NCBI RefSeq assembly: GCF_017348835.2
Contig: NZ_CP071375.1
DNA: 64,000 nucleotides
DNA from: Escherichia coli
GTDB lineage: Bacteria; Pseudomonadota; Gammaproteobacteria; Enterobacterales; Enterobacteriaceae
Strand: one strand, 5' to 3'
In this document: piece by piece, positions 41,801-44,800 of the stretch
How the letters are laid out: the number at the start of each line of letters is the position of its first letter
Position numbering within the stretch: the stretch's first letter is position 1
Program-made: the position numbers

Positions 41801-44800
41801 AGCAACCAGAGAGTCGGTTTTTTTCAGGAACGGGATGAAGTTACCCAGCAGGTCCTGCAGCATAAAGCGGCCAGAACGGGTACCCGCATCCAGCGCGGTC
41901 AGGATGAACAGGGCTTCGAACAGAATACCGAAGTGATACCAGAAGCCCATGTCAGCCATCGGCAGCACTTTGTGGAACACGTGCGCGATACCTACCGCCA
42001 GTGTCGGCGCACCACCTGCACGGTTCAGGACAGAAGGCTCACCAATGTCTTTCGCGGTTTGCAGGATCTGCTCTGGCGAAATCACGAAGCCCCAGGAGCT
42101 GACGGTCGCCGCCGCGTGTGCGGTAACGTCTTTCAGCTGCGCCATGATGATCGGCGCGTTCTCGCCACCCATTTCATGCAGGTTAGGCATGGTGATGCCA
42201 AGGCCCGCAGGCGGGGTGTTCATCGCGAAGTAAAGACCCGGTTCGATGATGGACGCTGCAACCAGCGCCATAATCGCCACGAAGGACTCCATCAGCATTG
42301 CGCCGTAGCCAATGAAACGCGCGTCGGTTTCGTTAGCCAGCAGTTTCGGCGTCGTACCGGAAGAGATCAGCGCGTGGAAGCCAGATACCGCACCACAGGC
42401 GATGGTGATGAACAGGAACGGGAACAGAGCGCCTTTCCACAGCGGGCCAGTACCGTCAATGTACTGGGTCATCGCAGGCATTTTCAGTTCCGGGTTCAGC
42501 ACCACGATACCCAACGCTAGGCCGACGATAACGCCGATTTTCAGGAAGGTTGCCAGATAGTCGCGCGGTGCGAGGATCAGCCACACCGGCAGCAGTGCGG
42601 AAACAAACGCATAGCCAATCAGCGCGAAGGTAATGGTGGTGTCTTTAAAGGTCAGTGCCGGACCCCAGTACGGATCGTGAGCAATCACGCCACCGAAGTA
42701 GATAGAGGCAACCAGCAGCACGATACCGATTACAGAGACTTCACCCACACGCCCCGGACGGATAAAGCGCATGTAGATACCCATAAACAGCGCAATCGGT
42801 ACGGTTGAGCAAACGGTGAAGACACCCCACGGACTTTCTGCCAGGGCTTTAACCACAATCAGCGCCAGGACGGCAAGGATGATGATCATGATTAAGAAAC
42901 AGCCAAACAGCGCGATAGTCCCCGGTACTGGTCCCATCTCTTCTTTGATCATCTCACCGAGAGATGCGCCGTTACGGCGAGAGGAGATAAACAGCACCAT
43001 AAAGTCCTGTACCGCACCGGCCAGCACTACCCCCGCCAGCAGCCACAGCGTGCCGGGCAGGTAGCCCATCTGCGCGGCGAGAACCGGACCAACCAGCGGA
43101 CCAGCACCGGCGATAGCGGCGAAGTGGTGACCAAACAACACGTAACGGTTGGTCGGAACGTAGTTCAGACCGTCGTTGTTAATAACCGCAGGCGTCGCGC
43201 GCGTGGGGTCGAGTTTCATCACCTTCTGGGCGATATACAGACTGTAGTAGCGATACGCCACCAGATACACCGACACAGAGGCGACCACGATCCACAGGGC
43301 GCTGACGTGCTCCCCCCGACGTAATGCAACTACCGCGAGGCAGAATGCACCGATGATTCCGAGAATCACCCAGGGTATGTGCTTGAATAGTTTTTTCGTA
43401 TCCATAGTAAAACCTGGCATTTTACTCGTCGTCTTTTGGCTTACAGGTGCGGCAGCTGCGTTCGTTCACCCCTGTCACTTACTGTTATAAGCTCCCGGGG
43501 ATTCACTCACTTGCTGCCTTCCTGCAAACCAAAATCCATAGAGTAATTTGTTAATCATAGGCCGAAGCCGTTCTAGGTTTGCGTTGCGTTTGAGGAGGTA
43601 AATTGACCGCTATCCTGCAGTGATGTTGCCAGAGTTACGCACGCGTAAAGTAAGGTAAATAACTGAGTGGTTATTTTAGGGATGTAAGCGGTCAGGAATG
43701 GCGGTGAGCGGTTGGGTAAGAATTATTCATCGGGTGGATATGTGATTGAGATCACAATAAAAATGCCCCTTCGACGAATGCGTGAAGGGGCTGGAGCTTA
43801 AATCGCAGCTTCCATTTCCAGCATCACCGGATGGAAACGGCGTTTAAAGTAGATAAGTCCGTGACCTTCTGCACTGAGGATGATGTTTTTAATCTCCACC
43901 AGATACACCAGATGTGTGCCAATTGCCTGCACATCGCGGATCTCACCTTCAAGACTGGCCAGCGAACCTTTCAGCACCGGCTGTGCCAGCGGACCTTTTT
44001 GCCAGCATGAGAGGCTAAAACGCTCTTCCATCGCCATGCCTGTCATGCCCGCGAAGTGGCGGGCCATCAGCTCCTGCTCATGATTGAGGACGTTGACGCA
44101 CAACTTACCGTTGCCCTGAAAAACCGGGTTCATCGCACTGTTGGCGTTAATGCACACCATCAGCGACGGTGGTGTATCCGTGACCGAGCAGACAGCCGTT
44201 GCCGTAATCCCGCATTGTCCGGCGTCGCCCTCGGTGGTGATAATATTTACCGCTGCCGACAGGCTGGCCATCGCGTCACGAAAGCGCAGGCGTTGTTCAT
44301 CTAATTGCATCTTAACCTCCTGCTGCGTTATTTCAGCAGCTTATCCAGCATGTTGATATCGTCGTTGTTGTGCAGGTGAGGCACAGTCCAGCCGTTCTGG
44401 TCGTATTCCGACAGGCAGCGATCAACCATCGCCATCATCTTGTCCATATTGCCGGAGCTTTGTGCCTGGCGCAGACACTGCAGGCGAATCTCATCCTGGC
44501 TACCGGAGTAGTTGATTTCATACAGTTCGTGACGACCACCAAACTCGCTGCCAATGGCATCCCACATCAGTTTGAGGATCTTGATGCGCTGGACGTGATC
44601 CATACCGTTCGAACCGCGCACATACTTCGCCAGATACTGGTCGATCTGCGGATTGTTCAGGTCACGGGCACTGGAAGGGAGATAGATCAGGCCACTGGTA
44701 ACGTTGCGTTCGATAATGTTTTTGATCTTCGCGTAGGCCATTGGTGCCAGTACGCGATAGGTTTGTAGTGCGGCATGATCCGGTAAATAAGCCCCGTTGA

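What the first reader, a model, noticed from the sequence alone, without database searches (positions are those of the whole stretch)
43741..43756. Perfect CRP consensus site upstream of btsT
TGTGATTGAGATCACA matches both TGTGA and TCACA half-sites with the correct 6-bp spacer. It lies in the btsT upstream region, consistent with catabolite control of a carbon-starvation-type transporter, and directly abuts the hpaC terminator, so it could also affect read-through from the hpa island.
Basis: seen in the sequence. Interest (0 to 1): 0.3.

Follow-up and report, generated by a model that had tools for sequence, protein, structure and literature searches.

The report
Known CRP site of btsT promoter
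The palindrome is real and is the conserved cAMP-CRP binding site of the promoter for the pyruvate transporter gene btsT; its K-12 counterpart is already known to be CRP-bound and btsT is already known to need CRP, so the finding is correct but ordinary.

Summary
TGTGATTGAGATCACA is at window 43741-43756 exactly as described. It is the only perfect TGTGA-N6-TCACA in the 64 kb (0.08 expected). It lies 336-351 bp upstream of the btsT start codon and 8 nt after the hpaC terminator hairpin.

It belongs to the btsT promoter, not to the hpa island. A core with at most 2 mismatches sits at the same register in all 80 usable btsT upstream regions (77 from about 25 other genera, plus the window, K-12 and H13). 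It lies 44, 64 and 84/85 bp (±1) upstream of three BtsR (YehT) boxes, whatever gene lies upstream (tsr, hpaC or others). G2, G4, A5 and TCACA are essentially invariant; the flanks are not conserved. At least four E. coli alleles keep perfect half-sites.

Published work on K-12:
- cAMP-CRP selects the yjiY<>tsr spacer in genomic SELEX.
- A btsT reporter is dead in a Δcrp strain.
- The site was a top computational CRP prediction in 2007.

Most likely mechanism: CRP acts as an upstream co-activator with BtsR. The inferred position of about -123.5 rests on a transcription start I could not verify.

The idea that the site modulates hpaC read-through has no comparative support.

Verdict: already known, low interest.

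The parts
43741..43756 (.). CRP core site TGTGATTGAGATCACA (btsT sense TGTGATCTCAATCACA), centred at 43748.5
   Evidence: Exact match, unique in the window. Homologous cores occur in all 80 usable btsT upstream regions, with G2, G4, A5, T12, C13 and C15 invariant. Information content is 1.77 bits per core position.
43738..43759 (.). Extended 22-bp CRP site; the conserved block runs GTGAT..AATCACATA in btsT sense
   Evidence: Matches 17 of 22 positions of the textbook 22-bp consensus (read). The bases just after the core on the promoter side (TAT..) are partly conserved at 0.6-1.2 bits.
43757..43791 (-). hpaC intrinsic terminator: hairpin 43791..43765, then U-tract AUUUUUAU 43764..43757
   Evidence: RNAfold gives the hairpin -16.5 kcal/mol. 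The 66-nt region folds at -22.8 kcal/mol with z = -5.8. The simple terminator scan missed it, apparently because it does not model bulged stems.
43798..44310 (-). hpaC (4-hydroxyphenylacetate 3-monooxygenase reductase subunit), last gene of the hpa island, same direction as btsT
   Evidence: NCBIfam NF012030, 385.6 bits, above its cut-off. RefSeq annotation of the identical strain E2865 agrees.
43713..43740 (.). Non-conserved linker between the CRP site and the first BtsR box; length is conserved, sequence is not
   Evidence: Information content is 0.22 bits per position for +21..+41, the core of the linker. The sequence is scrambled between E. coli alleles with no change in length.
43705..43712 (-). 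BtsR-type box 0, ACCGCTCA, starting 44 bp from the CRP 5' end
   Evidence: A box with at most 1 mismatch lies at +43 to +45 in 79 of 80 loci. K-12 has GCCGCTCA.
43685..43692 (-). BtsR (YehT) box 1, ACCGCTTA, at +64
   Evidence: Strict pattern ACC[GA]CT[CT]A-N13-ACC[GA]CT[CT]A matched. A box lies at +63 to +65 in 80 of 80 loci. The motif itself is recalled from Kraxenberger et al. 2012, which I could not read here.
43664..43671 (-). BtsR (YehT) box 2, ACCACTCA, at +85
43631..43659 (-). Inferred core promoter: -35-like TTTACC (43659..43654), 16-nt spacer, -10-like TAACTC (43637..43632); inferred start near 43625
   Evidence: Inference only. It rests on conserved blocks ATTTACC and ACTTTACGCGCG downstream of box 2. 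The sigma-70 consensus scan found nothing, as expected for an activator-dependent promoter. No start-site data were found.
43421..43550 (-). ERIC (IRU) repeat element inserted in the btsT leader; absent from K-12
   Evidence: K-12 homology breaks at 43420/43551. Matches 19 of 22 positions of each classical ERIC primer sequence (primers recalled from memory) and folds at -59.8 kcal/mol. The same insertion site is used in E. albertii, Escherichia sp. E1V33 and Citrobacter portucalensis.
41255..43405 (-). btsT (yjiY), pyruvate/H+ symporter, the regulated gene
   Evidence: CstA-family hit below the CstA equivalog cut-off. RefSeq annotates it as btsT, and the sequence is 100% identical to strain E2865 over the 1,001 bp compared.

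Best explanation
The palindrome is the cAMP-CRP operator of the btsT (yjiY) promoter. When glucose-type carbon sources run out, cAMP-CRP binds here. The site is about 40 bp, centre to centre, upstream of the first of three BtsR boxes that lead up to a weak core promoter. CRP and phosphorylated BtsR together activate btsT, so the pyruvate importer is made only when pyruvate is sensed and preferred carbon is lacking.

Shown here: the site exists, it is conserved position by position, and it keeps a fixed register with the BtsR boxes.

Shown by others in K-12: CRP binds the homologous spacer in vitro, and btsT promoter activity needs crp.

Inferred: CRP acts directly from about -123.5 as an upstream co-activator, through DNA bending and/or contact with the alpha C-terminal domain of RNA polymerase. 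Textbook precedents (from my own knowledge) are promoters such as proP P2, rhaSR and uhpT, where a second activator sits between CRP and the polymerase.
For: 1. The site is exact and unique in the window.
2. All 80 usable btsT upstream regions have a core at the homologous place: 31 perfect, 46 with 1 mismatch, 3 with 2 mismatches.
3. G2, G4, A5, T12, C13 and C15 are 80/80; A14 and A16 are 79/80. Variation is concentrated at position 1, with less at position 3, of the distal half-site. To my knowledge these invariant positions are the main CRP specificity determinants.
4. Information content is 1.77 bits per core position, against 0.08 in the upstream flank and 0.22 in the linker.
5. The offset to the BtsR-type boxes is fixed at +44, +64 and +84/85 (±1) in 79-80 of 80 loci.
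6. The site persists whatever the upstream gene: tsr in 23 loci, hpaC in 14, others elsewhere.
7. Four E. coli alleles have spacers TCTCAA, TATGAA, TATAAA and TCATCA. All keep TGTGAT..ATCACATA while the neighbouring linker is scrambled. The two commonest alleles are in 2,221 and 2,042 of 5,426 genomes.
8. Literature: cAMP-CRP genomic SELEX-chip lists yjiY<>tsr (PMC3105977), and that spacer has only this CRP-like core. PbtsT-lux is abolished in Δcrp (PMC7730263). Reviews state that btsT requires cAMP-CRP (PMC5431176, PMC10653868, PMC5936718). PhyloScan ranked yjiY 4th to 7th among CRP predictions (PMC1794230).
Against: - I could access no experiment that mutates this specific site. Kraxenberger et al. 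2012 may contain one but is not held.
- The Δcrp effect could be partly indirect. The same SELEX study lists yehU<>mlrA, which is the btsS upstream region.
- The transcription start is not known to me, so the -123.5 position and the helical phasing are inferences. That position is far for a simple class I mechanism.
- All binding and expression data come from the K-12 allele, not the hpa-linked allele in this window. The two differ at 2 spacer bases and in the flanks.
- The 80 loci are related by descent. The contrast between conserved core and unconserved flanks argues for selection, but it is not a formal test.
Confidence: 0.85

Rival explanations
1. CRP control of btsT is indirect, for example through btsSR expression or through metabolism and pyruvate overflow. 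On this view the palindrome is bound but does little at btsT, or in K-12-type genomes it mainly serves the divergent tsr gene.
For: The SELEX list also contains yehU<>mlrA, the region upstream of btsS. In K-12 the site lies 149 bp upstream of the tsr ORF. A Δcrp reporter experiment cannot separate direct from indirect effects.
Against: The site keeps a fixed register with the BtsR boxes, not with tsr. The distance to the tsr ORF varies from 55 to 154 bp, and tsr is not the neighbour in most loci. In this window tsr is about 11.3 kb away, yet the site is still perfect. The position-specific conservation is hard to explain without a function at btsT.
Confidence: 0.08
2. The site works with the adjoining hpaC terminator. 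Bound CRP would act as a roadblock or insulator that modulates read-through from hpaBC into btsT.
For: hpaC and btsT run in the same direction. The terminator U-tract ends at the base before the CRP core. In several other genera a T-rich tract also directly precedes the site.
Against: The site is equally conserved where the upstream gene is divergent, or where there is no hairpin; K-12 has -1.0 kcal/mol in the 60 nt upstream. Among hpaC-adjacent loci the gap from the stop codon to the site ranges from 41 to 419 bp. A -16.5 kcal/mol hairpin with a U-tract should terminate without help.
Confidence: 0.04
3. The palindrome is bound by a regulator other than CRP that recognises a similar inverted repeat.
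For: No binding assay was done on this allele. GTGAT..ATCAC is a simple palindrome.
Against: The pattern of invariant positions matches CRP specificity. Purified cAMP-CRP selects the K-12 spacer. The crp dependence is demonstrated.
Confidence: 0.02
4. It is a chance palindrome with no function.
For: 8 of 100 shuffles of the window produced at least one perfect core.
Against: Conservation in 80 of 80 orthologous promoters at a fixed register, with unconserved flanks.
Confidence: 0.01

Closest known systems
CRP site in the E. coli K-12 yjiY(btsT)-tsr intergenic region
   Same: Homologous position: 64 bp from the published BtsR repeat pair and 228 bp from the ATG once the ERIC insert is discounted. 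Half-sites are perfect and identical, as is the extended TGTGAT..ATCACATA. The regulated gene and the BtsR boxes are the same.
   Different: The central bases differ (TCTCAA here, TATGAA in K-12). The roughly 27-bp linker and the whole upstream flank differ. Here the neighbour is the hpaC terminator, whereas in K-12 it is the divergent tsr promoter region. Relative to K-12, 133 bp are replaced by about 11.3 kb. This window also has an ERIC element in the leader, which puts the site 351 bp rather than 228 bp from the ATG.
Co-dependent (class III-type) CRP promoters with CRP far upstream of a second activator, such as proP P2 (Fis at -41, CRP at -121.5), rhaSR (CRP at -111.5) and uhpT (CRP at -103.5 with UhpA). 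These examples come from my own knowledge and were not checked here.
   Same: CRP lies upstream of an array of sites for a signal-specific activator, and that array adjoins the -35 region. Expression needs both inputs.
   Different: The partner is a LytTR-type response regulator on three direct repeats. The CRP position relative to the transcription start is only inferred here, and the contact mechanism is untested.
cstA promoter (paralogous pyruvate transporter), also CRP-dependent
   Same: A CstA-family transporter gene under cAMP-CRP and CsrA control (PMC7730263).
   Different: cstA is described as sigma-70 driven, with a putative CRP site about 80 nt upstream of the start and Fis repression, and with no BtsR input. 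btsT is strictly BtsR-dependent and its CRP site lies further upstream.

Membership tests
CRP (cAMP receptor protein) binding site | Two-fold symmetric core TGTGA-N6-TCACA | tested here: met
   0 mismatches at 43741-43756. Matches 17 of 22 positions of the 22-bp consensus (read).
CRP (cAMP receptor protein) binding site | Conservation of the specificity-determining positions in orthologous promoters | tested here: met
   G2, G4, A5, T12, C13 and C15 are 80/80; A14 and A16 are 79/80. 1.77 bits per core position against 0.08-0.22 in the flanks.
CRP (cAMP receptor protein) binding site | Physical binding of cAMP-CRP to the DNA | not testable with these tools
   Literature only, and only for the K-12 allele: SELEX-chip target yjiY<>tsr (PMC3105977). 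Only one CRP-like core lies in that spacer.
CRP (cAMP receptor protein) binding site | Target gene expression depends on crp/cAMP | not testable with these tools
   Literature, K-12 background: PbtsT-lux is abolished in BW25113 Δcrp (PMC7730263). Catabolite repression is stated in PMC5431176, PMC10653868 and PMC5936718.
CRP (cAMP receptor protein) binding site | Mutation of the site itself removes the CRP effect (direct action) | not tested
   The primary paper (Kraxenberger et al. 2012) is not held. No accessible paper reports such a mutation.
Class I/III CRP-activated promoter | Site centred at a helical-face-compatible distance from the transcription start (-61.5 plus multiples of about 10.5 bp) | tested here: inconclusive
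   The start site is unknown to me. With the inferred -10 at 43637..43632 the centre falls at about -123.5, compatible with -124.5 within error. This is inference.
BtsR (YehT) LytTR-regulated promoter | Direct repeats ACC[G/A]CT[C/T]A separated by 13 bp upstream of btsT | tested here: met
   ACCGCTTA-N13-ACCACTCA at 43692..43664. A third box lies at 43712..43705. Boxes are present in 79-80 of 80 loci. The motif definition is recalled from Kraxenberger et al. 2012 and was not re-read.
Rho-independent terminator (of hpaC) | GC-rich hairpin immediately followed by a U-tract, downstream of a stop codon | tested here: met
   Hairpin 43791..43765 at -16.5 kcal/mol, followed by AUUUUUAU; the hairpin begins 6 nt after the hpaC stop codon. 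The simple scan did not list it because the stem has a bulge.
ERIC / IRU repeat element | About 127-bp imperfect palindrome with the conserved central inverted repeat, present or absent between strains in transcribed intergenic DNA | tested here: met
   130-bp insertion relative to K-12. Matches 19 of 22 positions of each of the ERIC1R and ERIC2 primer sequences (recalled from memory) and folds at -59.8 kcal/mol. A more canonical copy sits at the same site in Citrobacter portucalensis.

The most novel reading that the evidence does not exclude
The CRP site is the outermost conserved element of the btsT promoter. Alternative gene cassettes (tsr directly, the hpa island, a D-amino-acid island, an O157 hypothetical gene) all join the chromosome right at it, and recombination breakpoints fall inside the promoter. 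The most novel reading not excluded is this: the CRP-bound, bent DNA together with an abutting terminator acts as a boundary that insulates btsT from whatever is transcribed upstream. Separately, a previously undescribed third BtsR box may bridge CRP and the published BtsR pair.
Probability: 0.08. Interest if true: 0.35.

Novelty: already known. Interest (0 to 1): 0.12.

Why it matters
The site explains why btsT, the high-affinity pyruvate importer, is switched on only when pyruvate is sensed and preferred sugars are absent. That logic is already established for E. coli K-12.

This analysis adds modest points:
- The operator and its exact spacing to three BtsR boxes are conserved across Enterobacterales.
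- The operator survives replacement of all the DNA around it, including the 11.3-kb hpa island in this strain.
- Strains differ in leader length because of an ERIC insertion.

None of this changes the current understanding of CRP or of btsT regulation.

Tried and rejected
- **Consensus scan.** The promoter/terminator scan of 43300-43900 found nothing. This is uninformative: the promoter depends on activators and the terminator stem is bulged. RNAfold was used instead.
- **Primary literature.** I tried to read Kraxenberger 2012, Behr 2014 and Kristoficova 2018 for the mapped CRP site and the transcription start. None is held.
- **Literature searches.** Searches for ChIP data or a start site at btsT gave nothing usable. 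EcoCyc 2021, the iModulon paper, the PdhR paper and the sensory-systems review mention btsT but say nothing about the site.
- **Rfam.** A scan of the region gave only a sub-threshold hit to Vibrio AS5 over the ERIC element. I treat it as ERIC-like repeat similarity, not a gene.
- **Site as hpa-island DNA.** Megablast to K-12 stops 30 bp short of the site, which suggested this at first. Alignment rejected it: K-12, O157 and other alleles each carry their own perfect core at the same register.
- **RNA hairpin reading.** I considered that the palindrome is just an RNA hairpin of the hpaC 3' end (it folds as a 6-bp stem). This is rejected because the palindrome is conserved where no gene in the same direction lies upstream.

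Full report
**Observation**

The 16-mer TGTGATTGAGATCACA is at window 43741-43756 and matches TGTGA-N6-TCACA without a mismatch. It is the only such match in the 64-kb window. Dinucleotide-preserving shuffles expect 0.08 matches, and 8 of 100 shuffles gave at least one. Allowing one mismatch gives four sites against 1.97 expected. Taken alone, then, the match is only modestly unlikely.

Only the 16-bp core is perfect. In btsT sense the 22-mer is TATTGTGATCTCAATCACATAT, which matches 17 of 22 positions of the textbook consensus AAATGTGATCTAGATCACATTT (read).

**Context**

- The window is E. coli, 100% identical over 1 kb to strain E2865.
- On the minus strand, the ORF ending at 41255 is a CstA-family paralogue that RefSeq annotates as btsT. 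The annotated start is the ATG at 43405, giving 716 aa.
- 43798-44310 is hpaC and 44328-45890 is hpaB.
- hpaC and btsT run in the same direction.
- Downstream of the hpaC stop codon, RNAfold predicts an 11-pair bulged hairpin at 43791..43765 (-16.5 kcal/mol). It is followed by AUUUUUAU at 43764..43757, and the CRP core begins at the next base.
The simple terminator scan missed this hairpin, apparently because it does not model bulged stems.

**Whose site is it?**

Megablast against 5,426 complete E. coli genomes showed that hpa-negative genomes such as K-12 lose similarity at about window 43711, which is 30 bp short of the site. That raised the possibility that the site is hpa-island DNA.

Alignment shows otherwise. 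K-12 has divergent tsr upstream of btsT, and it has its own perfect core, TGTGATATGAATCACA, at the homologous position. A strain with a D-amino-acid island there has the window's version.

Relative to K-12, 133 bp (L001 2990-3122, including the K-12 site) are replaced by window 43712-55031. K-12 similarity resumes at the tsr promoter region.

Four E. coli alleles were seen, with central bases TCTCAA, TATGAA, TATAAA and TCATCA. The last is O157:H7, which has an extra hypothetical gene upstream. All four keep TGTGAT..ATCACATA and the same spacing to the downstream boxes. The roughly 27-bp linker beside the site is scrambled between them.

The window-type and K-12-type 54-mers occur in 2,221 and 2,042 genomes respectively. 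Of these, 1,812 and 1,618 are identical over the full 54 bp.

**Cross-genus footprint**

One scan of representative genomes returned 80 btsT loci from about 25 genera of Enterobacterales. Seventy-seven of them had a usable upstream region of at least 450 bp. Adding the window, K-12 and H13 gives 80 upstream regions.

Core matches between -450 and -166 from the ATG:

| Mismatches to the core | Regions |
|---|---|
| 0 | 31 |
| 1 | 46 |
| 2 | 3 |

Position by position, G2, G4, A5, T12, C13 and C15 are 80/80, and A14 and A16 are 79/80. Variation is concentrated at position 1 of the distal half-site (T 39, C 25, A 16), with less at position 3. To my knowledge this is the pattern expected from CRP's base contacts.

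In an ungapped stack anchored on the site, information content is as follows:

| Region | Bits per position |
|---|---|
| 10 core positions | 1.77 |
| Upstream flank | 0.08 |
| Linker | 0.22 |
| BtsR box 0 | 1.34 |
| BtsR box 1 | 1.23 |

Boxes matching ACC[G/A]CT[C/T]A with at most one mismatch start at +44, +64 and +84/85 (±1) from the CRP 5' end in 79-80 of 80 loci. The +64/+85 pair is the published BtsR (YehT) repeat with its 13-bp spacer; I recall that motif from Kraxenberger et al. 2012 and did not re-read it. In the window the three boxes are 43712..43705, 43692..43685 and 43671..43664.

The upstream neighbour varies:
- Divergent tsr in 23 loci.
- hpaC in the same direction in 14 loci.
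- The deaminase (daa) gene in 2 loci.
- Assorted other genes elsewhere.

The site therefore travels with btsT and its BtsR boxes, not with the neighbour.

**Literature**

[quoted passage not shown] They cite Kraxenberger et al. 2012 (PMC5431176; PMC10653868; PMC5936718).
- Gasperotti et al. [quoted passage not shown]
- Shimada et al. 2011 list yjiY<>tsr among intergenic spacers selected by purified cAMP-CRP in genomic SELEX-chip (PMC3105977). In K-12 that spacer has only this one core with at most 2 mismatches.
- PhyloScan (2007) ranked yjiY 4th to 7th among genome-wide CRP-site predictions (PMC1794230).
- The primary 2012 paper is not held, so I could not see whether the site itself was mutated or where the transcription start lies.

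**Mechanism**

Best supported: cAMP-CRP binds this operator and, together with BtsR~P on the three direct repeats, activates a weak promoter. This makes btsT expression an AND function of pyruvate sensing and carbon limitation.

The promoter geometry is inferred. Conserved blocks after box 2 suggest:
- A -35-like TTTACC at 43659..43654.
- A -10-like TAACTC at 43637..43632.
- A transcription start near 43625.

That would put the BtsR boxes near -84.5, -63.5 and -42.5, and CRP near -123.5. Such a position is on roughly the same helical face as the classical -61.5 position. It resembles co-dependent promoters where CRP lies upstream of another activator; examples I recall are proP P2, rhaSR and uhpT.

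The conserved length but unconserved sequence of the linker fits a requirement for phasing.

An indirect contribution of CRP is not excluded, because the SELEX list also includes the btsS upstream spacer yehU<>mlrA.

**The read-through idea**

Nothing comparative supports a functional coupling of the site to the hpaC terminator:
- Among hpaC-adjacent loci in other genera, the gap from the stop codon to the site ranges from 41 to 419 bp.
- The site is equally conserved with a divergent neighbour and with no hairpin upstream.
- The hairpin and U-tract look sufficient on their own.

**Verdict**

The K-12 counterpart of this site is an already known, published CRP target at a gene already known to need CRP. 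The version here is simply the allele linked to the hpa island. Novelty: already known. Interest: low.

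Noticed in passing
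window 43421-43550 (minus strand), btsT leader: A 130-bp ERIC/IRU repeat element is inserted about 15 nt upstream of the btsT ATG, relative to K-12. It folds into a long hairpin (-59.8 kcal/mol). It would lengthen the inferred leader from about 95 to about 220 nt, in a gene known to be under CsrA control. The same insertion site is occupied in E. albertii, Escherichia sp. E1V33 and Citrobacter portucalensis, so occupancy is polymorphic and either old or recurrent.
   Followed up: partly
window 43705-43712 (minus strand): A third BtsR-type box (ACCGCTCA) lies 20 bp upstream of the published pair. It is conserved at +43 to +45 from the CRP site in 79 of 80 loci. K-12 has a one-base mismatch there (GCCGCTCA). 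I could not check whether it has been described.
   Followed up: partly
window 43695-43760 compared with L001, L084, L087: The distal btsT promoter is mosaic within E. coli. Strain MS20674 has the K-12-type linker between CRP and box 0, but the window-type sequence between box 0 and box 1. This implies recombination breakpoints inside the promoter.
   Followed up: partly
window 43757-43775 compared with L002 3035-3073 and L005: The hpa island and an alternative island (amino acid deaminase / N-acyl-D-amino-acid deacylase) share the descending arm of the terminator and the T-tract (CGAAGGGGCATTTTTAT). They differ in the loop and in everything upstream, as if the cassettes were exchanged with a breakpoint inside the terminator.
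   Followed up: no
window 54352-54367: TGTGATCTAATTAACA, a CRP-like core with one mismatch, lies in the AT-rich divergent region between the hpaG-like ORF (52968-54263, minus) and the hpaR-like ORF (about 54529-54974, plus). From memory, the hpa meta-cleavage operon promoter is reported to be CRP-dependent; I did not check this.
   Followed up: no
window 55032 onward: K-12 similarity resumes at 55032, just upstream of tsr (55093-56757). It starts at a TAAAGTTT motif that looks like the sigma-28 -35 element. In this strain tsr is therefore about 11.3 kb from the CRP site that lies 149 bp from it in K-12.
   Followed up: no
loci L004-L083: The distal half-site is perfect (TGTGA) in 12 of 14 hpaC-adjacent loci but in only 6 of 23 tsr-adjacent loci, where it is mostly CGTGA or AGTGA. 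This may simply reflect phylogeny and was not corrected for relatedness.
   Followed up: no
L084 1799-2341 (E. coli O157:H7 F8492): O157:H7 carries a 543-bp hypothetical gene between btsT and tsr. Its own allele of the distal promoter has the core TGTGATCATCATCACA.
   Followed up: no
window 43406-43420: the ORF listing extends btsT to an upstream in-frame ATG at 43420 (721 aa). RefSeq and all orthologues start at 43405 (716 aa, MDTKK...).
   Followed up: yes
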